From Octopus vulgaris (taxonomy: Eukaryota): 64,000 bases of DNA. The stretch spans positions 23,932,001 through 23,996,000 of the forward strand of contig OX597821.1 of assembly GCA_951406725.2 (NCBI GenBank), given 5' to 3'. Within the stretch, counting starts at the first letter, position 1. Each line of letters starts with the position of its first letter. A program made the translations under genes and the position numbers. The notes below the pieces were generated by a model, which was not told where the DNA came from, ran no database searches, and worked only from the letters and a program-made list of their open reading frames with translations. Shown piece after piece: positions 7,513 to 63,620 of the stretch.

Positions 7513-8040
7513 GTTAGTTAGTTAGTTAATTTTTTTGGCTCAAAAAGCTAAAAAGCAAGGCTATGTAGAGGGACGTGGAGTTATGTACAGGGTGGTGTTC
7601 ATGTAAAGAGATCAGGCCACTTGTGGTCAAGGGAGACTTTGAACCGAGCGGTCGTCGGCATCTTCACCATCTTGTCCGGCAGCTTATTCCACGGATCTGC
7701 AACCCGGACGGAGAAAGCCCCTCTCCTTCGATTGAGATGAAATCGTCGCAGATAGAGCTTTTCGGAATGACCCCGCAGCCGACGCTCTGGAGCAGGAGTG
7801 AAGAACAGCTCTTTCGAGAGGTTACACATTCCACTTATGATGTTGTGAACAAGAATGAGATCACCACGGCGTCGTCGTTTTTCTAGAGAATAAAGGTCGA
7901 GCGTCTTCAGCCTTTCTTCATAAGACAAATTCTTGAGCCCAAGAACCATGCGGGTAGCCAGCTTCTGGACTCTTTAAACATGCTGTATGTCTTTGAGGAG
8001 ATAAGGAGAAGAGGCTTGAATCCCGTACTCCAATATGGGT
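7513..8040 (-). mobile_element. CR1-clade LINE, 5'-truncated 3' end, inserted in a SINE
   Basis: LEYGIQASSPYLLKD...RVQKLATRMVLGLKNLSYEERLKTLDLYSLEKRRRRGDLI...RGH...FSVRVADPWNKLP with a (TAAC)n tail. The host SINE is split at 7345-7512 / 8040-8180. Confidence 0.88.
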
Positions 8041-8280
8041 CACGCTGAATTTCCCTGGAAACTATATTAAGGGCACATGTGTTTGTGGGGTGCTCAGCCA
8101 TTTGCACATTAATTTCCTGAACAGGTTGTTCTGTTGATCGGATCAACTGGAACCCTCATTGTCATAACCAATGGAGTGTCAAATAAACATGTATACATGA
8201 TCACACATAAACAATAAAGAAATATACATGCTTATGTTCTAATGTAACATCCAAATCCATGAGTACATGTCTATCTACAT

Positions 8281-13189: not shown

Positions 13190-13765
13190 CATCAGTCTTG
13201 TGCCTCCCTCCCCCAATTACCAGCTGCAATTCCTGTCTGTATTGGAGCATTTTTAAAGCAATCCTTAAACCTTAGTTTAGGCTTATGCGCTGGTCTCCTG
13301 CCATCTTCCAGCTTACCATAATATAGCTGCTTGGGCAGTCGCTCATCACTTATCCTTACCAAATGTCCCCACCACTTCAAACGACTTTGCAAAATTATTG
13401 ACACTATACTTCTATTGCCACTCCACTCAAGCACCTCCTTATTACTAATGGCCATTTTCCAGTTTATTCCCCAAATTTTTCTCAGACAGCATTAATGAAA
13501 TCATTCCAATTGCCTTACCTGCCTACAGTAAACAACCTATGCCTCACTTCCATCTAGCAAAGATGGGAGGACGCATGTGTTATACACCTTAACTTTAATT
13601 TGTGAAGATATATTATGTTGTTTCCACAGACGCCTATCAAGCCTACCAAAAGCACTACTAGCCCTACTGATTCTGTATGAAATTTCATCATCAAGACCAG
13701 CAGTGCTCAAGGTACTTCCTAAATAAATAAATCAAGGTACAGTCTCCAACCTTTGACCATTCACA
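13190..13765 (-). mobile_element. RTE-clade LINE fragment (RT C-terminus), degenerate
   Basis: RLKWWGHLVRISDERLPKQLYYGKLEDGRRPAHKPKLRFKD, preceded by a KVYNTCVLPSLL-like segment. Confidence 0.8.
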
Positions 13766-19126: not shown

Positions 19127-19156
19127 CTTATCGTCTTCACATCCACAACATCCCAT
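19127..19156 (-). CDS. SLC44A1: Choline transporter-like protein 1, first coding exon (MGCCGCEDDK); exon starts at 19171 with 15 nt of 5' UTR
   Basis: Minus strand: polypyrimidine tract + tttcAG acceptor, ATG at 19156, AAG|GTAGTA donor; phase 0. The MGCC N-terminus matches CTL1 proteins. Confidence 0.85.
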
Positions 19157-20530
19157 TCTGCTATATCTTGGCTGAAATGAAAGAAAGAAAAGAGAAAAAA
19201 TGTGAAAAAGTAGAACTAAATTAGATCCATACCCACCACCAACACCACTGCAAGTACCACCACCACCACTGCAAGTACCACCACCACCACCATTGCCACC
19301 GCCACTACCACTACCACCACCACCGCCATCACCAACAACATTTACCAGAACCACTATCATCACATCCTCCACCACCACCACCATCATTAACATCATCACC
19401 ATCATCAACATTACAACAATCATCATCACCACTACCATTATATATGTATGCTGAGACCATGAATACTAACTGTACATGGTCTACTACCACTGCTGCCATT
19501 ACTTGTGCACTCACCACCACCAGCACCACCACCACTGCTGCCATTACCATTATGTAATACAGTCAGGACCATGCTGGGGTACTGCCATGAGGAATTTTAA
19601 TTGAACTAATTGGCCCTAGTGCTTATTTTCTGTTTAAGCCTAGTACTTATCCTGTCGGGCCTTTTGCTGAACTGTTAAGTTACAGGGATGTAAACACACC
19701 AACGCCTGTTATCAAGTAGAGGTGGGGGGGACAAACACAGACACAAACACACACACACACACACACACGTGATGGGCTTCTTTCAGTTTCTGTCAACCAA
19801 ATCCACTCACAAGGCTTTGTCAGCCTCAGGCTATTGCAGAAGACACTTTCCCAAGATGCCACACAGTGAGACTGAACCCAGAACCATGTAATTATGAAGC
19901 AGACTTCTTACCACACAGCCACAAATGAAAACGGGAATGCTTCTTTTGCTAACCAACCACATGGTTCCGGGTTCAGTCCCACTGCGTGGCATCCTGGGCA
20001 AGTGTCTTCTGCTATAGCCCCGGGCCGACCAATGCCTTGTGAGTGGATTTGGTAGACGAAAACTATAAGAAGCCTGTCGTATATATGTATATATGTATGT
20101 GTATGTGTGTGTGTTTGTGTGTCTGTGTTTGTCCCCCTAGCATTGCTTGACAACCGATGCTGGTGTGTTTATGTCCCCGTCACTTAGCGGTTCGGCAAAA
20201 GAGTATGATAGAATAAGTACTGGGCTTACAAAAGAATAAGTCCCGGGGTCGATTTGCTCGACTAGAGGTTGTGCTCCAGCATGGCCGCAGTCAAATGACT
20301 GAAACAAGTAAAAGAGTATAGGATCAGTATTGATATATTTGAATGTACCTATGAATGTGTAATTCTCTTCAAGGAGCCGCTTTGGTATGGTTTCTATGGT
20401 TGGATGCCCTTTCCAAAGCCAACCACTTAACAAAGTGTACAAAGTGCTTTTTTTTTTTAATTGCATGACACCTGCACAAGCATTGGTGTGGTCAGCAAAT
20501 AAATTGCAAGCTAAAGAAAAAGACCCCCAC

Positions 20531-21525: not shown

Positions 21526-22814
21526 CGAGGGACGTTCAATAAGTAATGCCTCTGACCCATTTGCAGTTGTTTGATCTAGCTGAAATTTTGCATGTGCAAT
21601 CATTTATATCTCTATAGAGTAGGTGGCAAATTACAGCTCTGAATTAATTGTGGTTTCTGATTTACAGGTGTTTGAACCGAGTCAAGTGTGAAATGGAGCC
21701 TGTTGAGTGTCGAGCAGTGATCCGGTTTTTGTATTTGAAAGGACGCACACCACGGGAGACTTTTGATGAAATGAAAGTAACTTATGGTGATGATGCCCCA
21801 TCATATGACCTTGTAAAACGCTGGCATCGTGAAATCAAACATGGTCGGAACTCTGTGGAAACAGCTCCCAGATCTGGTCACCCCTTCTGCCATTGATGAG
21901 GCATCCATCCGTCAAGTTGAGGCTGCCATTTTGGAAGATCGACGCATAATTATTCGCCAAATAGCCCATGAGGTCAAGATTAGTACCGGGTCTGTGGAAA
22001 CTATCATTCATGACCATTTGCATATGAAAAGGTGTCTGCCAGATGGATTCCCAGGTTGCTCACGCCTTTCCAGAAGCAAGAACGCGTCGAGTGCTCGAGG
22101 GTGAATTTGGAGATGTGCCAAGAAGATGAGTCAAAATTTTTCAAAAGACTGATTACACAGGATGAAACCTGGGTCCATCACGATGATCCAGAGACCAAAG
22201 CCCAGTCAATGCAGTGGAAGCACCGTGACTCACCCCCTCCAAAGAAGGCAAGGGTGCAGCCCTCCACTGGCAAGGTCATGCTCACAGTCTTCTGGGACCA
22301 GGACAGAGTAGTGATGACAGATTTCCTGGCAAAGGGTACCACAATTGCAGGAGCCTATTATGCTTCACTTTTGAGGAAATTAAGAGAAGTTATCAAAATC
22401 AAGAGGCGGGGCAAGATCAGTAAAGGCATCCTGCTCCTGCAGGACAACGCTCCGGTCCACAACTCGCTTGTCGCCAGATCAGAAGCACAGGCGTATGGCT
22501 ATGAACTCCTCCCCCATCCCCCTACTTTCCTGACCTTGCACCCTCTGATTTTCACCTCTTCCCAGTCATGAAGTTGTTTTTGAAAGGAAAGCGTTTCCCA
22601 GATGATGCAGCCTTGATTTCTGAAGTCACGTTCAGGTTGGAGGACCAAGCTGGGGTCTTCTACAAAAACGGTCTCCAGAGCTGCATCAAACAATGGGAGA
22701 AATGCGTAACTCTGGGTGGTTCCTATGTAGAAAAAGACTAATAACTGTGCCAAGTTTCGTTGCTCTACTGCTATGGGAAGTGGGTCAGGGGCATTACTTA
22801 TTGAACGCCCCTCG
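21526..22814 (+). mobile_element. Full-length mariner (DD34D) element; transposase 21693-22741 disrupted by about 3 frameshifts
   Basis: TA|CGAGGGACGTTCAATAAGTAATGCC ... GGCATTACTTATTGAACGCCCCTCG|TA. Motifs WIPRLL, TQDETW, QDNAPVH, PDLAPSDF; 34 residues between the last two aspartates after frame repair. Confidence 0.95.
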
Positions 22815-26049: not shown

Positions 26050-26395
26050 TATATACAACAGGCTTCTTTCAGTTTCCGTCTACCAAATCCACTCACAAGG
26101 CATTGGTCAGCCCGGGGCTATAGCAGAAGACACTTGCCCAAGATGCCACACAGTGGGACTGAACCTGGAACCATGTGGTTGGTTAGCAAGCTACTTACCA
26201 CACAGCCACTTCTGCATAACCTAGCAGTTTGGCAAAAGAGACAGGCAGAATAAGTACTAGGCTTAAGGAATAAGTCCTGGGGTCGATATGTTGAACTAAA
26301 ACATATCAATGATTGAGCTGTTGGACACTTGTAACCCACAATGCTAGTGTTCACCAAATGTGATATAAATCATATCATCATCAAAATCTTTTTGT

Positions 26396-27640
26396 GGATC
26401 TTTTCTTTTTGAATGGCAGATCAAGAAATTAATTTTTTGTAACTAAACACTTTCGAACTTCAGACACTGGAAGAATGTGTCATATAAAACATCTCTTACT
26501 CTTAGTGTTGTTGAGAAAAGTTTCTATTTTCAAAGTCATTTCGTGTTAAAGTTGTCGTATTTCGGTAATTTCAACCAATCAATGATGTGTATTCAGCTGA
26601 ATAAAATTACTGCCGTTGCTTGTCAAAAACAACTATTGGTGGTGTATAGTTCATTTGTCACTGTTATTTATGACATCGTTTGTGCGTTTGTACTGGTTTT
26701 AGCTTTAGGGTTTCGGGGTTAGGGTTAGAGTTTTAGAGTTAGGGTTAGGGGGTTAGGGTTTCAGGGTTAGGGTTAGAGTTTTAGAGTTAGGGTTAGGGTT
26801 TTAGAGTTAAGGTTAGGGTTTTAGAGTTAAGGTTAGGGTTAGAGGGTTAGGGTTTTAGGGTTAGGGTTAGGGGGGTTAGGGTTAGGGTTATAAAGTTAAG
26901 GTTAGGGTTATAGAGTTAAGGTTAGGGTTTTAGAGTTAAGGTTAGGGTGTTAGGGTTAGGGTTTTAGAGTAAAGGTTAGGGTTTTAGGGTTAGGTTTAGG
27001 GTTTTAGAGTTAAGGTTAGGGTTAGAGGGTTAGGGTTTTAGGGTTAGGGTTACGGTTTTAGAGTTAGGATTAGGGTTTTAGAGTTAGGGTTTTAGAGTTA
27101 GGGCTAGGGTGTTAGGGTTAGGGTTTTAGAGTAAAGGTTAGGGTTTTAGGGTTAGGGTTAGGATTGGGGTTTTAGGGTTAGGGTTGCAGTTTTAGGGTTA
27201 GAGTTACGGAAAAAAGTGAAATGAAGAAAATGGAGGTAGGGGGGCAAAAAAGTATTTCCAAAAACAGTAGCTGAAACACAGGAAAAACAACTAAAAGCAA
27301 TAGAAATGCACGAACGATTATGGTGGTGCCATGAAGTAAACATGCTTCAGATACACTCGTTTATTCATACAAACGTAACTGAGATGAAATATGTCATAAA
27401 TAACAGTGACAAACGAAATATACACCGCCGGAAGTTGTTGACAAACAATAGCAGTGATTTTATTCAGCTGAATACACGTCATTGATTGGTTGAAATTACC
27501 GAAATACGACAATTTTAACACGAAATAACTTTGAAAATAGAAACTTTTCTCAACAACACTAAAAGATGTTTTACATGACACATTCTGCCAGTGTCCAAAG
27601 TTTGAAAGTATTTAGTTACAAAAAATTAATTTCTCGATCC
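26396..27640. mobile_element. Non-autonomous DNA transposon with ~250-bp inverted arms enclosing a telomere-like array
   Basis: GGATC...GATCC termini. Flanks CTTTTTGT / CGTTTTGT (7/8 match, putative 8-bp TSD). Arms 26419-26676 and 27391-27640 are reverse complements. Confidence 0.85.
26705..27206 (+). repeat. Interstitial degenerate telomeric array (TTAGGG with TTAGAG/TTAAGG/TTTTAGAG variants)
   Basis: About 500 bp of TTAGGG-type units with a recurring ~20-bp higher-order unit GTTAAGGTTAGGGTTTTAGA. Confidence 0.95.
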
Positions 27641-29175
27641 CGTTTTGTAATATTTTTGTCATCATTAACAAATATTTTTATTACATTTTTATCATATTAT
27701 CATCAAAATCTTTCCCTATTTTTATTTTCTCATAATCAAATATCACATTGTCATCCAAATTTTTTCATATTTTCGTATGATCCTCATCAAATATTTTCTC
27801 ATATTTTTATCATTTCTTCATTTACAAACATTTTCATCACCTCTTTTATCACAAAAAAGCAATTTATTTGTCTGCAATTAAAAAATGAAAATAGCTGAAT
27901 AAACTGGAGCAGTGTCCAACATTAAATCACCTCTCAAATGACCCACAATTCCTTCTGTAGAACAAGAATTAAATCACTCAAATAACGACGACAATAGCTG
28001 TTCAAATCTAAAGAACACAAAACAAACACAAAATTATCCATAAAATATAACTGTAACCCATACACAACTTAAAAAGAAAACTGAAAACTATAGTTTCATC
28101 CAGCCCTTGTTTTCTTTTTCCTTGTTTCAGCAAGATCCATAATAACGATTACTGTTATCGCCAACGATACCACCACTACCATCATCACTGCCATTGCTGC
28201 TGCCACCACCAACAACACCACTACCAGCACCACCACTGCTGGCCCCCACCAGCACAGCCCTGCTGCCAATATCAACAAACATTGTCAACAAGAGCAGAAA
28301 AATAGCAGTTGTCACATTCTCGCCAAGTCCGTTGAGCTAGCTTTCATTGAAGCTGCCATCTAAATCTACAGATGTAGAGACATACCAAACAGTGGACAGA
28401 GTGCAATATGTCAAGAATGTCACAGTGCACCCCATGCAAATCATCACTGCATGTCAGAGAGTGCAGTATGTGAAGCAGGAAGAACTAACATCAAAAGTTT
28501 GATTTGGCTTTGACTAATTAAATATTCTTTTCTACTCTAGGCAAAAGGCCCGAAATTTTTGGAGAGGGGGGGGGCCAGTCGATTAGATCGACCCAGTATA
28601 CAACTGGTACTTAATTTATCGACCCTGAAAGGATGAAAGGCAAAATCGACCTTGGTGGAACTTGAACTCAGAACAGACGAAATTCCTATTTCTTTATTGC
28701 CCACAAGGGGCTAAACATAAAGGGGACAAACAAGGACAGACAAACGGATTAAGTCGATTACATCGACCCCAGTGCGTAACTGGTACTTTATTTATTGACC
28801 TCAAAGGATGAAAAGCAAAGTTAAACTCGGTGGAATTTGAACTCAGAACGTAAAGACAGACGAAAAACCGCTAAGCATTTCGCTCGGCGTGCTAACGTTT
28901 CTTTTCTACTCTAGGCACAAGGCCCGAAATTATTATTTTTTTTGTCGGGGTGAGGGGTGGATGTCAATTAGATCAACCTCAGTACGCAACTGGTACTTAA
29001 TTTATTGACTCCGAAAGAATGAATGGCAAAGTCGACCCCGGCGGAATTTGAGCTCAGAACAAAGACAGACAAAATACTACTAAGCATTTTGCCCGGCATG
29101 CTAACGAGTCTGCCATCTTGCCACCTTTGACTAATCAATTACTGATTAGTCAAATAATAAAACAATACTTTCAAG

Positions 29176-29601
29176 GGATCTTTTCGGTTTGAACGGCAGT
29201 TTTTTCTAGCAGTGTCATATGAAATTGTCACCATAATTATGACCCTAGTATCAATCTATTGCATTTCAATCTGTTAGGGTTAGAGTTAGGGGTAGGGTTC
29301 GGGGTGGGGGAATGGTATCTTTTTTCTTTAGAAATGTAAATAAACCCAATCTGTTTCTTAAACGAGGGACATATTCATACGGCACAGAATGTTTTCACCT
29401 CAATAGAGGTCATTGATTGGTTGAAATTGCAGAAATTGAAGGAAAAAAAACAACAAATATCTTACAAACTATAGAATTTTCTCAATAAAGCCAAGAGAAA
29501 AAGATATTTTATAAACACATTCTACCAGTATACGAAGTTTAAAAGTGTTTAGTTACATGGAAATTATTTTTAAAAAACTGCCGGTCAAACCAAAAAGATC
29601 C
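29176..29601. mobile_element. Short relative of the telomere-repeat transposon (MITE)
   Basis: TIR GGATCTTTTCGGTTTGAACGGCAGTTTTTT / AAAAAACTGCCGGTCAAACCAAAAAGATCC. Perfect 8-bp TSD CTTTCAAG. Internal TTAGGGTTAGAGTTAGGGGTAGGG. Confidence 0.88.
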
Positions 29602-29669
29602 CTTTCAAGCTGGAACCTAGACTGAAAGATAAGTGAATTGAAGTAATTTACGACACTGTAACACAATAC

Positions 29670-37277: not shown

Positions 37278-38161
37278 GCCAGATCAACAAGTATCCAGAC
37301 TGTTGCCATAGTAACAAATCTAAAGCATGCAGAGGGAAGTTACTTGGTACATATTGACCTTGAACTCTGCTGAACATATGTCCCGAGTTTTAAAACCCTA
37401 GCTCACTTTTGCTGTTTACAGCAGTGCATGGAAGGAAGGTGTGTAGCATTGACCATGACAGAGGAAGTTGTCATGACGATACCTGCTCAGAGGCCTACAC
37501 AAAGTTGCCGAATGTGTATGAGCTGCACACAAGTGTACAAGAGGTTTGGACATTTCCAAGATGGCTGAGAAAATGTTGATATTGACAAACGTCCTGGGAA
37601 ACCCACAACCAGCAGAACTGAGAAAAACATCGCAGATGTGCATGCAGCTGTGAGGGGAAATCGTCGAATCACCATCCGTGAGTTATCAGAGGATGTGCAG
37701 ATTAGTTACAGTTCAGTTCAGTCCATTATCACTGAAGATTTGGGTATGAGACGCGTGTCCGCCCAGTTTGTGTCAAAGCTGCTTTCAGCTGACCAAAAAG
37801 ACACTCGGGTTTCAGTTGCACAAGATCTCCTTGATTGTGTCGAGAATGATGAAAACTTTTTGAAAACTTTGCGTAGGCCTCAGAGCAAGTATCGCTAAGC
37901 TTTTGGCAAAATTTGATGCAGATTCTCTGCTCAACTTTCTCTGTTATGGTCAATGCGATGATCACACGCTCCTCTGTCATGGCCAATGCTACACACCTTC
38001 CTTCCAAGCGCTACTGTAAACAGCGGAAGTGAGCTAGAACGTTAAAACTTAGTGCACATGCACAGCAGAGTTCAAGGTCAATCTGTACCAAGCGGCTTTA
38101 CTCTGCATGCTTTAGCTTCGTTACTATGGCAACAGTCCAGATACTTATTGATCAGATCACG
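37274..38161. mobile_element. Palindromic mariner derivative built from two 5' ends
   Basis: Both ends read GATCAA.AAGTATC..GACTGTTGCCATAGTAAC inward. Plus strand has the HTH remnant NRRITIRELSEDVQIS...LGMRRVSAQFV. Minus strand has the N-terminus EKVEQRICIKFCQKL. Confidence 0.85.
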
Positions 38162-48529: not shown

Positions 48530-49766
48530 CAGGGTGGGGAAGCAAAATTTACAATGAACGTTAAGTTGTTTTTTCTCAGCAGGCACAAAGTTAATTGTTT
48601 TGAAACTTAGCATATATTGATGTCGTAATCATACCTAACACTATTAGCCTTACCTTTTCAGAAACTTTTGCCCATATGAGTAATCAGGAAAGCAAACTTC
48701 AAAGAGTGTGTGATTTGCTGAATGCACTCGTCACACCAAAGGAGATTTCAAGAATAGTTGGGGTGGCCATAAAGACTGTTTATAATGTAAAGAATTGAAT
48801 GACTATGAGCAAAACTATTATGAGGGGGTCAGGAAGTGGAGGAATCAACAAAAACGTAACAAAGCTTTTATTAAAGCTCTCAAATTCAAAATTCTAAAGG
48901 ATCCAACCAAATCCACGAGAAAAATGGCAATTGAACTTGAGGTAGACACGAAGACCATTAGAAATGCAGTAAAATATGATTTGAGGTTAAAATCTTACAC
49001 AAGAACATCAAAACTCTTGTTGACAACAGCTATGAAGGAAAAGAGATTGGAAAGGTGCAAGAAAATTATTTCATGGTTCAAGAAAAAGTCCTCCATTGTA
49101 ACGATCTTTTCTGATGAAAAGATCTTCAGTGTCGATGCTGTTCTGAACCACAGAAATGACAGATTTATTGCAAAATCAACAGCTGAGGTTAAGGGCACAT
49201 TCAAAACAAAACATCCTGCTCAAGTTATGGCTTTTGGTGTTGTGGCTTCCGATGGAAAGAAAATGCCCATAAAATTCTACAAAGTTGTGAAAAGATCAAT
49301 GTTAATACTTACTACAAGACTCTGACTAACCAGGTATTGCCATGGCTTAAAGCAAACTACCCAGATGGTAATTATGTATGGACACAGATGGTGCTCCAGC
49401 ACACACAGGTAGAAAAATACAAGATTTCTGCAAATCCAACTTTAGCAATTTTTTGGAATCATGTTTATGGCCGCCTTCTAGCCCAGATCTAAACCCTCTG
49501 GATTATGCTATTTGGGGCGTTTTAGAACATGCTACCAATAGAACATCACATAGCAATGTCGACTCTCTTAAAGATACTATTAAAGAAGAATGGGAGAAGT
49601 TGTCTCCCGAATATTTGAGGAACACTTGTGCAAGTTTCAGGAAGTGTGTGAAGGCAGTTATTGAGAAAGAAGGAGGACACAGAGAATAAAAAACATTTTC
49701 TGTTATGTAAATTTTCTTGTGGCAAATAATTCTCATGACTTTCTGTAAATTTTGTTTCCCCACCCC

Positions 49767-56107: not shown

Positions 56108-56383
56108 TGTATGTGTATGTATGTATATGTTTGTGTGTCTGTGTTTGTCCCCTCAACATCGCTTGACAACCGATGCTGGTGTGTTTACATCCCTGTAACT
56201 TAGCAGTTCAGCGAAAGAGACCGATAGAATAAGTACTAGGCTTACGAAGAATAAGTCCTGGGGTTGATTTACTCGACTAAAGGTAGTGCTCCACCATGGC
56301 CGCAGTCAAATGATTGAAACAAGTAAAAAAAGGAAAAAGAGTATGATGATGATGATGATGATGATGATATATATAATCGCTCT

Positions 56384-56947
56384 TTGGAGATAATGCTATG
56401 GGAAAAACACCAGTTCAAAGATGGCTACACCTCAGTGGACAGTGAGCCCCATTGTGGCAGACCATCAACTAGCAGAAAAGATGAAATGATTGCAAAGGTT
56501 CGAGGAATAGTCTGTGAAGACTGTCATGTGACTATTGAGGAGATTGTTGCCAAAGTTGAAATCAGCCATGGATCAGTTCAGTCAGTTCATTCTACCCATA
56601 TTGTCCAAGCATTCTTCATCAAGCAAAACAAACCACTCGTTCATCAGGCTTCCTACTCCCCAGACTTGGCTCCATGTGACTTTTGGCTATTCCCAAATCT
56701 CAAAAACAAAACACTAAAAGGGAGAAGATTTGAGTCAACAGAGGACATTAAGCAAAATCTAAATGGCACAGCTCTACAGCATCCCAGAAAGTGATTTCCA
56801 GAAATGTTTCCAGCAGTGGCAGGAATGCCAGCAGAGGTGTGTAGACTCTCAGGGCGAATACTTTGAAGGAGACTAAATCAAAATACTGAGTTTTTTAATA
56901 TCACTTGTTTTTTGGCTAAAGGTCGGATACTTTTTGACAACACACAG
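56384..56947 (+). mobile_element. Internally deleted mariner remnant with right TIR
   Basis: GRPSTS...VTIEEI and YSPDLAPCDFWLFPNLK...KGRRFES. The end GGTCGGATACTTTTTGACAACAC is also present at 55665-55749. Confidence 0.85.
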
Positions 56948-58027: not shown

Positions 58028-59564
58028 TCAGCCATTCAATTTGGGGGAGAACTTAGTTATGAAATATTTTTCCATATTCCTCCTGAAGGAAGTGTCATTC
58101 TTTGGACATTTGTAGAAGGGAAAGATCTTAAATTTTCCTTCTCCACGTGTATCAAAGTGTTTACTCAGTGGTATCTTGCACAGTTCCGCCTGTCGGACAT
58201 GTTGTCGGTGAATTCTGGCTCATTGGCATAAAGAATTTCCAGTTTCACCTATATAATCCTCCTTGCATGTGGAGCAGGTTATGCAATATATTATGTTCTG
58301 CGTCTTGCAGTTCATATCTGCATTTACTTTGAATATGTGACCGCTCTTAAATTTCATTTGTTTGTCTTCCTCTATGTATTTGTAGGTGGGGTTACTGCAG
58401 ATCCCACATCTACCATCTCTGCACTCTTTTACAAGGAATTCAGTTTTAGTTTCTGATGAGAATTTCACTCTTGTTAGTTGTTTCTTCAGGTTTTTGTCTT
58501 GTCGTCTACTGTTTTTTATGCAATATTTGTTTAGTATGTTTTCTATTTTGGGACTTTGTAGGACTATTGGCAGGTTTGAATGTATCATTTTGGAACATGT
58601 TGGTAACTCCAGGGTTGTGCGTGTTTATGAAAGGGATAATGTTTTCTTTGTTTTTTGTTTTGGGTGTCCTGAGTTGTGTGATGTCCAGTTTCATTGCTCT
58701 TGAGATTCCATTTTTGTTCTAGTAGGAAGTTTTTAAGTTCATCTAGTCTTATTTGGCATGTTTGTGAGTCAGTTACTATGCTGCATATGCATCTTGCCAT
58801 ACTATATGGGATGTTTCTTTTTATGTGGGATGGGTGGCAGGAGTAGAAATTTAAATATTGGTGTGCGTCGTTTTTTTGTAGTGGATGTCTGTTGTGATGA
58901 TGGAGTTGTGTATCTTGATGTTGATGTCTAGGAAGGGAAGTTCGTTGTGGCTGGTATCTATTGTGAAGTTGATAAATGGGTGCAGTGTGTTGAGGATGTT
59001 GTGGAATGTTCGTAGGTCTTCTGATCTGTTCCAAAAGATGAAGCAGTCATTGAGGTAGTGTTTCCACTTTTTCTTGATGTCTTCTCTGAAGTCGTGTTCG
59101 AAGACTTTCCCTATTTCATTGTATAGTTTGTTCTCAAGGAAACCCATCACCAGGTTAGCATATGAAGGTGCGAATTTTGTACCCATAGCCGTGCCCTTTT
59201 CTGTCAGAATGTCTTGTTGAATGAGAATGTATTTTCTTCGAGTATTAATTGGGTGGCTTGGGTGATAAAGTCTGTCTTGAAACGTTCCTCTATAAGTTCT
59301 CTGTATTTTTCTACCGATTGTTTTATCGCTTCCAGACCTAGGGTGTGTGGTATGTTCGTGTATAAGTTTGTGACATCAAAGCTTGCAAGTATGGTGTTTT
59401 TCGGAACTGTATTTGGAATGTGTGTGAGGAAGTCTATGTCATCCCTTATGTAGCTAGGTATCTGTGGGCATAAAGGTTTGAGGAGTACATCTATGAAGTG
59501 GCTTAGTTGTTGTGTTGGTGCTTGGGGCCCTGCTACTATTGGTCTCATTGTGAGGTCTGCGGGC

Positions 59565-59566
<2 letters not shown>
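58028..59566 (-). mobile_element. Penelope-like element: reverse transcriptase + GIY-YIG endonuclease, 5'-truncated, frameshifted
   Basis: RPIVAG, SFDVTNLYTNIP, GTAMGTKFAPSYANL, YLNDCF, LPFLD, then NIIYCITCSTCKEDYIGETG, ending KYFITKFSPKLNG*. Confidence 0.92.
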
Positions 59567-59607
<41 letters not shown>

Positions 59608-62414: not shown

Positions 62415-63620
62415 CAGAGGGACCAGTAATCTGAATCGACAGTAGCTTGGTAGATAAAGCAATTAAGGATAGGGAAAGAGGGAAAGCACACAGCCCTACA
62501 GGAATCACTGCTGGGATGCTTCGGATATCTGGTGGAGTGGCATATGGCCTAGTCACCCATATACTTAATCAAGTTGTCCAAAAGAGAGTCAGCCCCCTCC
62601 TATTTATCATAGTCCTCCAAGCCATAACAAAGGCTGCCCTTTGGAGCTTCTCTATGCTCCAAAGCATAGAGGAGCTCCAAAGGGCAGCCAATCTTAAATA
62701 ACTGAACCACTGCCTGAACTACAGAGGAAATTTCAGGTGTGGAAGCAAGGTCTGGAATCTAAGGGCCTAGAGTTAATTTAGTTAAGACTAAAGTCCTAGT
62801 AAGTAGGATAACAGACAAATCTCAGATCCCTTCAGGAAGCTGGCCCTGCTCATTATGTAGGAAAGGTGTTGGTAGAAACTCAATAGGGTGCACCCAGTGC
62901 AAGCTATGGACACATAAGAGGTGCAACGGTTTCACGAGAAGGTTAACAGACAAAGCAGTCTTTGTGTGTGGCAGATGTGGAGGTACATTAAACACGAGGA
63001 ATGTGCAGAAAATAAACTCCTTTAAATGTCTGGGAGGATCCTTAAAAGTAATAGATGGTTTCCATTACTTAGGTGACCAAGTTAGCAGTGGAGGAGGAAG
63101 TTCTGAGTGTGTAGTTGCAAGAATAAGAACAGGCTGGGCAAAGTTCAGAGAGCTGCTACCTTTATTTGTAACAAAGGGCTTCTCATAAGAGTGAAAGGAA
63201 ATTGTATGATACCTGTGTACATACAGCTATGTTATATGGCAGTAAAACATGGGCTATGACTACAGGGGGTATGTGAAAAGCTTGAAAGAAATGGAGCCAG
63301 CATGTTCTGCTGAAGATCAGTGTGCATGTACAACAGAGCGTAAATGGTTTAAGAGAAAAATTGGGCATAAGAGACACATCATTTGTAGTGTGCAAGAGAG
63401 AAGACTGCACTGGTATGGTCATGTGATGCGTATGGATGTAGGCAGCTGCATAAAGAAGTACCAATCTCAAATTGTGGAGGGAACTTGTGAAAGAGGTAGA
63501 TTCAAAAAGATGTGGTATGAAGTAGTGAGAAAGAATCTTCAGATGTTGGGCTTCAGAGAGATGACAAGGGACTGAGACTTCTGATAGTTTGCCATGCTTA
63601 AGAAGACACATCAAGCTAAA
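62415..63620 (+). mobile_element. RTE-clade LINE fragment with Cys-rich insertion in the RT region
   Basis: GKAHSPTGI, SPLLFIIVL, GLRVNLVKTK, WPCSLCRKGVGRNSIGCTQCKLWTHKRC, FHYLGD, RIRTGWAKFRELLP, RRLHWYGHVMRM. Confidence 0.85.

What the first reader, a model, noticed from the sequence alone, without database searches (positions are those of the whole stretch)
26396..27640. DNA transposon carrying a 500-bp telomere-like array between long inverted arms
Seen: a degenerate (TTAGGG)n array sits between ~250-bp inverted arms, with GGATC/GATCC ends and a 7/8 target duplication. A shorter relative 1.5 kb away (29176-29601) has a perfect 8-bp TSD and only about 4 telomeric units. Established: TTAGGG is the molluscan telomere repeat, and GG..CC ends with 8-bp TSDs are typical of Merlin (not exclusive to it). 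Inference: interstitial telomeric sequence is being spread, and expanded internally, by a MITE family rather than by chromosome fusion. This could recruit telomere-binding proteins or form G-quadruplexes upstream of SLC44A1.
Basis: partly seen in the sequence, partly recalled or inferred. Interest (0 to 1): 0.72.

Follow-up and report, generated by a model that had tools for sequence, protein, structure and literature searches.

The report
Octopus Merlin transposon carrying telomere-like repeats
This is an old, gene-less cut-and-paste transposon, likely from an octopus, whose 510-base decayed run of the telomere repeat TTAGGG likely came from a second small transposon that jumped into it; such elements scatter short telomere-like runs through the genome, and no function for them is shown.

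Summary
Observation confirmed, with corrections. The element (26396-27640) is one copy of a family with thousands of copies, 281-bp inverted arms, GG..CC ends and 8-bp target duplications (16 of 23 copies at 7/8 or better; control 1 of 506). Decayed Merlin (IS1595-type DDE) genes carry the same arm at a fixed place in 10 of 14 places, so the Merlin guess holds. New here: the array likely did not arise in this family. A third small transposon (family C, other ends, 8-bp duplications) carries it; C's right half sits inside the long family, and homology stops at C's terminus. The window's array is the longest of 33 measured (31-510 bp, median 115). It mixes 6- and 8-base units and holds private duplicated blocks, which fits slippage rather than telomerase. 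This copy has lost 22 bp of its right end. Runs of a diverged organism show the same insertion with that end intact, so it is old. In 600 kb of evenly spaced sample, 7 of 9 TTAGGG clusters lay in these families. A role at SLC44A1 is unsupported. The scan noted these octopus elements before, on other DNA of this genome.

The parts
26388..26395 (.). Left copy of the 8-bp target-site duplication (CTTTTTGT)
   Evidence: family-wide 8-bp duplications
26396..26676 (+). Left 281-bp terminal inverted arm of Merlin family A, starting GGATC
   Evidence: homologous arm upstream of Merlin transposase genes at 71-91%
26677..26704 (+). Family-A subterminal stub ending in a GGTTTTAG word, likely the microhomology at which the arm was joined to the array
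   Evidence: the same word stands just inside the arm of coding copies L150, L159, L162; the join by microhomology is inferred
26697..27206 (+). 510-bp compound telomere-like array (TTAGGG, TTTTAGGG, TTAGAG, TTAAGG units); exact 57-bp and 52-bp internal duplications at 26813/26996 and 26943/27105; 4 quadruplex-type motifs on the + strand
27207..27259 (+). Remnant of the right half of family C: purine-rich module and decayed C terminus (27250-27259); the module between them is deleted in this subfamily
   Evidence: alignment to longer relative L345 and to family C copy L309
27260..27390 (+). Family-A right subterminal region; its reverse complement matches the interior of coding copy L149, which lacks C at this site
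27391..27640 (-). Right inverted arm, lacking 22 terminal bases between two GATC words
   Evidence: a contig of organism B fits the same shortened end; intact end at the same site in organism C
27641..27648 (.). Right copy of the target-site duplication (CGTTTTGT, 7 of 8)
29176..29601 (+). Short sister family (416-441 bp in the 30 best copies), about 30-bp terminal repeats, perfect 8-bp duplication at 29168-29175 and 29602-29609, short array near 29274-29311
19154..19156 (-). Likely start codon of the neighbouring choline-transporter-like (SLC44) gene; context only
   Evidence: exons near 15.0 kb and 11.1 kb match CTL1 structure 7wwb at E 2.5e-08 and 2.3e-06; exon sequence

Best explanation
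This is an old, gene-less copy of a high-copy transposon family whose ends match decayed Merlin genes, and its telomere-like array likely came in as cargo from a second small transposon and likely grew by slippage. Steps: (1, shown) Merlin elements with the 281-bp arm existed; decayed coding copies remain. (2, homology shown, event inferred) family C, a 490-930-bp element with its own GG..CC ends and the array, inserted just inside one arm. (3, inferred) a deletion from a GGTTTTAG word near the other arm into C's array removed the transposase gene and C's left half, and a later deletion removed part of C's right half. (4, copies shown, enzyme inferred) the resulting element of about 800 bp was copied thousands of times by the Merlin transposase acting in trans, making 8-bp duplications. 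(5, inferred) arrays then grew or shrank copy by copy through slippage and block duplication. (6, shown) this copy is shared with a diverged organism and has lost 22 bp of its right end, which (inferred) likely immobilises it. The array is most likely neutral cargo.
For: Ends and duplications: 16 of 23 long-family copies with both termini match 7/8 or better against 1 of 506 cross-pairs; short family 24 of 30, plus 2 with 9/9. Coding partner: PF12762 at 36.6 bits, cut-off 27; arm upstream in the same orientation in 10 of 14 places with transposase DNA 77% or more alike, against about one family copy per 75 kb in evenly spaced sample. Family C: 18 of 37 loci showed both ends, 15 of these 18 with duplications of 6/8 or better. 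Four longer long-family copies align to C's right half up to its terminus; 52 of 58 loci with the junction site have C's terminus directly before it, and coding copy L149 has the site without it. Array 31-510 bp in 33 copies. Two variant words occur twice in this array and in 0 of 117 other loci. Same insertion in organism C, whose flank differs at 31 of about 510 letters.
Against: No coding copy with both ends and a matching duplication was found (20 widened loci; L142 has both arms but 2/8). 4 of the 14 coding places lack the upstream arm. Three coding copies (L137, L142, L152) carry a piece of C's right module next to a cut-off transposase, so exchange between the families was more tangled than one insertion, and the direction C-into-A rests on parsimony. 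No coding partner of family C was found among the Merlin hits fetched, so where the array first arose is open. 7 of 23 long copies fail the duplication test. No empty site was seen; in organism C most of the right duplication copy appears to be missing. The array length in this copy rests on the assembly alone.
Confidence: 0.72

Rival explanations
1. The array is native to the ancestral coding Merlin of family A or arose inside it by slippage from the GGTTTTAG word; family C shares it through later recombination rather than having donated it.
For: Coding copies have GGTTTTAG just inside the arm, the same 8-base word that recurs in the array. Coding copies L137, L142 and L152 carry part of the module that follows the array. 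L154 has a short telomere-like run about 400 bp after its stop codon. The short family has an array without a recognisable C terminus.
Against: Homology with C ends at C's terminus in 52 of 58 loci; C has its own two ends and duplications; none of the 20 widened coding loci holds a run of three TTAGGG units.
Confidence: 0.15
2. The array is selected: telomere-binding proteins or quadruplexes on it help these elements move or escape silencing, or the host uses the dispersed sites, including the one beside the SLC44 gene.
For: At least three families with two kinds of end carry it. The window's array has 21 TRF-type half sites (motif recalled) and 4 quadruplex-type motifs. TRF proteins bind some human interstitial runs, depending on length and conservation (PMC6410037, passages).
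Against: Some copies have 0-1 exact units yet both ends (L022, L013; family C L304, L320, L324). Coding copies lack it. The arrays decay and perfect runs reach only 6 units. The two longest arrays lie in damaged copies (the window; L024 has no left arm in its locus). There are no binding or expression data.
Confidence: 0.1
3. The run at this place is a chromosome-fusion scar, a telomerase insertion made at this locus, or a misassembled subtelomere.
For: TTAGGG is the only experimentally determined cephalopod telomere motif (PMC13218726, passages); long perfect arrays exist in this assembly; the array was not spanned by reads here.
Against: One orientation only; 23.9 Mb from the nearer end of a 118.9-Mb contig; the same flanking anchors enclose an array in 33 copies across the genome; the right junction is seen in independent runs; 8-base units are not what telomerase would be expected to write.
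Confidence: 0.03

Closest known systems
Merlin superfamily (IS1016/IS1595-related) and its non-autonomous derivatives (PMC8101967, passages and supplement search; Feschotte 2004 known only through that paper)
   Same: 5'-GG termini, 8-bp (sometimes 9-bp) duplications, terminal repeats within the 24-462-bp range, DDE_Tnp_IS1595 partner; internal tandem repeats are described as common in Merlin, and Octopus bimaculoides is named as Merlin-rich.
   Different: The internal repeat is telomere-like, and it likely passed between families by nested insertion. That paper's main text has no occurrence of 'telomer'; in its supplements TTAGGG occurred only in three sequence files.
MITEs with hitchhiking microsatellites: insect (GTCY)n MITEs, Xenopus Xstir/MITE, bivalve satellites (PMC6947457, passages: reference list and table only)
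   Same: A small non-coding DNA transposon spreads a simple repeat that then varies in length from copy to copy.
   Different: Different superfamily and repeat; here the repeat equals the likely host telomere motif. At 430-980 bp (1,245 bp here) the long family is large for a MITE.
Short interstitial telomeric sequences of vertebrates (PMC8537989, passages)
   Same: Short TTAGGG runs inside chromosomes.
   Different: There each run is inserted in one step at a break and transposons were found not to spread them. Here most sampled short runs lie inside transposon copies and mix 6- and 8-base units.
Octopus vulgaris repeat annotation (PMC13282606, passages and one supplementary table)
   Same: Lists Merlin (18 consensus families, 2.19 Mb) and MITE classes in an octopus.
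   Different: No mention of telomeric repeats in the text or the table held; its consensus library was not among the files I could see, so these families may already be in it under some label.

Membership tests
Merlin (non-autonomous) | Terminal inverted repeats begin with 5'-GG | tested here: met
   GGATC..GATCC in the window and in most copies
Merlin (non-autonomous) | 8- or 9-bp target-site duplication | tested here: met
   long family 16 of 23 at 7/8 or better, control 1 of 506; short family 24 of 30, plus 2 of 30 with 9/9
Merlin (non-autonomous) | Terminal repeat length within 24-462 bp | tested here: met
   281 bp in the long family, about 30 bp in the short family; range from PMC8101967
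Merlin (non-autonomous) | A DDE_Tnp_IS1595 transposase gene bounded by the same terminal sequence | tested here: met
   PF12762 E 5.7e-09, over cut-off; the three acidic motif blocks (positions recalled) are visible in the frame; arm upstream in 10 of 14 places, and downstream in L141, L142, L152
Merlin (non-autonomous) | An intact autonomous partner with both ends, a duplication and an open gene (needed for present-day mobility, not for membership) | tested here: not met
   none among the 30 loci or the 20 widened loci; all coding copies seen are decayed
Merlin (non-autonomous) | No N-terminal Zn_Tnp_IS1595 domain | tested here: inconclusive
   only PF12762 matched, but the 241-aa frame is partial
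MITE | Short, non-coding, high copy number, uniform length | tested here: inconclusive
   met by the short family (416-441 bp among its 30 best matches); the long family is non-coding and abundant but 428-985 bp, this copy 1,245 bp
Fusion-type interstitial telomere | Head-to-head arrays at a single junction (definition recalled) | tested here: not met
   all 39 exact units on one strand, no CCCTAA in the element; multi-copy context
Telomerase-inserted short interstitial telomere | Repeats added in one step at this locus, with an empty orthologous site | tested here: not met
   the array lies between family anchors in 33 copies; first origin in family C not testable here
Zisupton/KDZ (8-bp duplication, recalled) | KDZ transposase in the genome with these ends | tested here: inconclusive
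   no PF18758 match in the genome, but the control rang nowhere
Mutator/Foldback (long arms, 8-10-bp duplication, recalled) | MULE transposase bounded by these arms | not tested
   not searched once the arm was found linked to Merlin genes

The most novel reading that the evidence does not exclude
A telomere-repeat cassette has been passed between Merlin families by nested insertion and kept because it is useful: it recruits telomere-binding proteins or folds into quadruplexes, so tens of thousands of transposon-borne sites form a genome-wide set of telomere-protein docking or chromosome-healing seeds in octopus.
Probability: 0.1. Interest if true: 0.72.

Novelty: new variant of a known kind. 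Interest (0 to 1): 0.36.

Why it matters
It gives a route to interstitial telomere-like runs that differs from fusion and from break repair: carriage by DNA transposons, likely tens of thousands of sites in this genome. It also shows a repeat cassette likely changing vehicle by nested insertion. In practice, short TTAGGG runs inside octopus chromosomes should not be read as fusion scars, and telomere finders or probes will pick them up. The spread of array lengths in one family (31-510 bp) is a ready panel for asking how long and pure a run must be to bind telomere proteins in a mollusc. Nothing here shows an effect on the host or on the SLC44 gene.

Tried and rejected
Top Merlin hits as partners: the best-scoring families have other termini; the partner came from a weak hit (L137) and its relatives. 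KDZ/Zisupton search gave nothing and its control was silent. Chromosome ends: 0 of 20 terminal 3-kb stretches hold a telomere array, so the telomere motif was not read from an end in this assembly. Empty site: none in 8 runs; X23 gave no reads, X24 only simple-repeat reads, X3, X19 and X20 no contig across the junction. Coding partner of family C: not seen in the Merlin loci fetched, which cover part of the 150 hits; about 40 more that I had picked were not fetched, and further weak hits were never picked. Short family versus family C: similarity is confined to the array and its G-rich tail (scores 42-48 against 24-28 reversed), so common origin is not shown. Pfam did not name the five SLC44 exon frames; the structure database named two exons. 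Rows dropped: L046 from the array-length list (anchor fell in an inverted arm; 33 of 34 rows kept; six duplicate places removed first; 20 other loci lacked one or both anchors); from the duplication count, the window copy, duplicates, L014 (false pair) and pairs without both termini. Eight paper searches listed no paper describing TTAGGG arrays in Merlin elements or octopus MITEs; I saw most results as listings only, and Repbase and Dfam were not searchable. A sequence look-up in earlier findings returned nothing.

Full report
Observation. The element runs 26396-27640 with GGATC and GATCC ends and flanks matching 7 of 8. The arms align over 258 columns at 88%. The interior holds 39 exact TTAGGG on one strand, mixed with TTTTAGGG, TTAGAG and TTAAGG units; the longest perfect run is three units. 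The short element at 29176-29601 has a perfect 8-bp duplication but shares only about 210 terminal bases at 73% with the long one, so it is a sister family, not a short-array version of the same element. The window lies at 23.9 Mb of a 118.9-Mb contig in a 2.8-Gb genome. I infer an octopus from the repeat content (recalled) and from earlier scan notes; the species was not established here.

The family. The left arm has 3,824 first-look candidates and the short element 4,533 (40 scored each). Other long-family copies with both termini are mostly 428-985 bp, and most have two full 281-bp arms. Of 23 distinct copies with both termini, 16 have flanks matching 7/8 or better, against 1 of 506 cross-paired flanks. 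Of the 30 best short-family copies, 24 match 7/8 or better and 2 have 9/9. In 60 evenly chosen 10-kb stretches (600 kb) I found 2 long-family pieces, 5 short copies, 1 fragment and 1 family C copy. That scales to roughly 9,000 long and 23,000 short copies, with wide error at such counts. Of 9 clusters of two or more exact TTAGGG in that sample, 6 lay in the two families, 1 in family C and 2 elsewhere. Long perfect arrays also occur inside contigs (5,347 overlapping matches to ten units); I did not examine their context.

Merlin partner. The genome has 150 scored matches to PF12762. The best-scoring families have other termini, but one weak hit, L137, had our arm downstream. Its frame scores over the Pfam cut-off. 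Among 14 places with transposase DNA 77% or more alike and reaching the 5' part of the gene, 10 have the arm a few hundred bases upstream in the same orientation; L141, L142 and L152 have it downstream and inverted. Among 11 more distant relatives (70-73%) one does. Arm identity to the window is 71-81%, and 91% in L149. All coding copies are decayed and none showed both ends with a duplication. With GG termini, 8-bp duplications and arm length inside the published range (PMC8101967, passages), the element files as a non-autonomous Merlin.

Where the array came from. None of the 20 widened coding loci holds a run of three units. A search with a neighbouring module revealed family C (654 first-look candidates): 492-931 bp, a different GG..CC terminus, duplications of 6/8 or better in 15 of the 18 loci that showed both ends (37 examined), and the same kind of array, 0-362 bp between exact units. 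Longer members of the long family (L329, L331, L345, L350) align to C's right half, and the alignment ends at C's terminus. In 52 of 58 loci with the junction site, C's terminus stands directly before it; coding copy L149 has the site without it. The window copy keeps a decayed C terminus at 27250-27259 and has lost the module before it. The simplest history is that C inserted inside one arm of a family-A element, and a deletion from a GGTTTTAG word near the other arm into the array removed the gene and C's left half. This order is inferred. Against a tidy story, three coding copies carry part of C's right module beside a cut-off gene, and L303 joins C's left end to A's right end. No coding partner of C was seen, so whether telomerase or slippage first made the array is open.

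Expansion. Between fixed anchors the array measures 31-510 bp in 33 copies, median 115; the window's is the longest and L024 (508 bp) the next (one spurious row dropped). These copies were chosen by likeness to the window, so the distribution is not unbiased. Copies show their own repeated variant units. In the window, exact blocks of 57 and 52 bp occur twice, and the variant words in them are absent from 117 other loci (a few of these are duplicate places). This fits slippage and block duplication, not addition by telomerase, which would be expected to write pure hexamers (established knowledge). Whether it happened before or after insertion is not shown, and reads did not span the array.

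Age. A contig from organism B runs from inside the arm into the flank with a length that fits the same shortened end (record 16). Contigs from two studies of organism C match the flank with 31 differences in about 510 letters, and their loose end reads as the full family terminus. So the insertion predates that split and the 22-bp loss came later. No empty site was seen. A copy with a damaged terminus and only decayed partners is likely immobile.

Function. The array has 21 TRF-type half sites (motif recalled) and four quadruplex-type motifs on the + strand, so binding or folding is possible. Human TRF binding to internal runs depends on length and conservation (PMC6410037, passages), and perfect runs here are short. 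TTAGGG is reported for one octopod (PMC13218726, passages); 0 of 20 contig-end stretches showed a telomere. Two exons match choline transporter-like protein 1; which SLC44 paralogue it is was not tested. The likely start codon is 7.2 kb away on the minus strand and follows an acceptor-like site, so the element may be intronic, with the G-rich strand as template. With about one such copy per 75 kb, closeness to a gene is expected. Copies with almost no array still have both ends, so the array looks like cargo.

Comparison and novelty. Merlin elements with internal tandem repeats, and MITEs that spread microsatellites, are known (PMC8101967, passages; PMC6947457, reference list and table). Vertebrate short interstitial telomeres arise by break repair and were not found to be spread by transposons (PMC8537989, passages). 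An octopus repeat annotation lists 18 Merlin families and does not mention telomeric repeats in the text or table I saw (PMC13282606); its library was not visible and may hold these families. PMC9071541 and PMC5646656 (passages) added nothing on transposon carriage. Eight searches listed no paper on this. The scan has noted octopus Merlin-type elements with TTAGGG cargo three times on other pieces of this genome; those notes are not independent support. Verdict: real, a new variant of a known kind, interest 0.36.

Noticed in passing
L072, L075, L078, L079, L085, L089, L356, L361, L372: Another Merlin group, 1.3-1.8 kb where both ends were seen, with short termini, 8-bp duplications and open frames up to about 320 aa; L079 and L089 are 99% alike, so it may be recently active.
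   Followed up: partly
L086:714-3112 and L087:501-2603: Fold-back Merlin copies: a 2.4-kb near-perfect palindrome, and 820-bp arms that are 100% identical.
   Followed up: no
L006:564-1278: A related element with a short-family interior is nested inside a long-family copy, a second case of these elements inserting into each other.
   Followed up: no
L303 and L296: Chimeras: family C left end with a family A right end (L303), and a family A arm leading into family C's interior and right end (L296).
   Followed up: partly
G000:C2:47.83 Mb, C3:37.42 Mb, C5:210-213 kb: Long perfect TTAGGG arrays away from contig ends; a different class from the transposon-borne runs or misplaced telomeres.
   Followed up: no
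window 26368-26418 and 27690-27791: The insertion site lies in a decayed AT-rich tandem repeat of about 50 bp (family D4).
   Followed up: no
L145 and L154, downstream of the transposase: L145 has a tandem repeat of about 47 bp right after the gene; L154 has a short telomere-like run about 400 bp after its stop codon.
   Followed up: no
window 19172-19173: Acceptor-like site 16 bases before the likely SLC44 start codon, implying an upstream non-coding exon not located here.
   Followed up: partly
window 21650-22740, 37570-37900, 48790-49690, 56330-56790: Broken frames that resemble Tc1/mariner transposases (resemblance recalled, not searched).
   Followed up: no
window 58220-59570; 7600-8155; 13190-13490; 62430-63580: Broken frames that resemble a Penelope-like element (first) and LINE reverse transcriptases (others) (resemblance recalled, not searched).
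   Followed up: no
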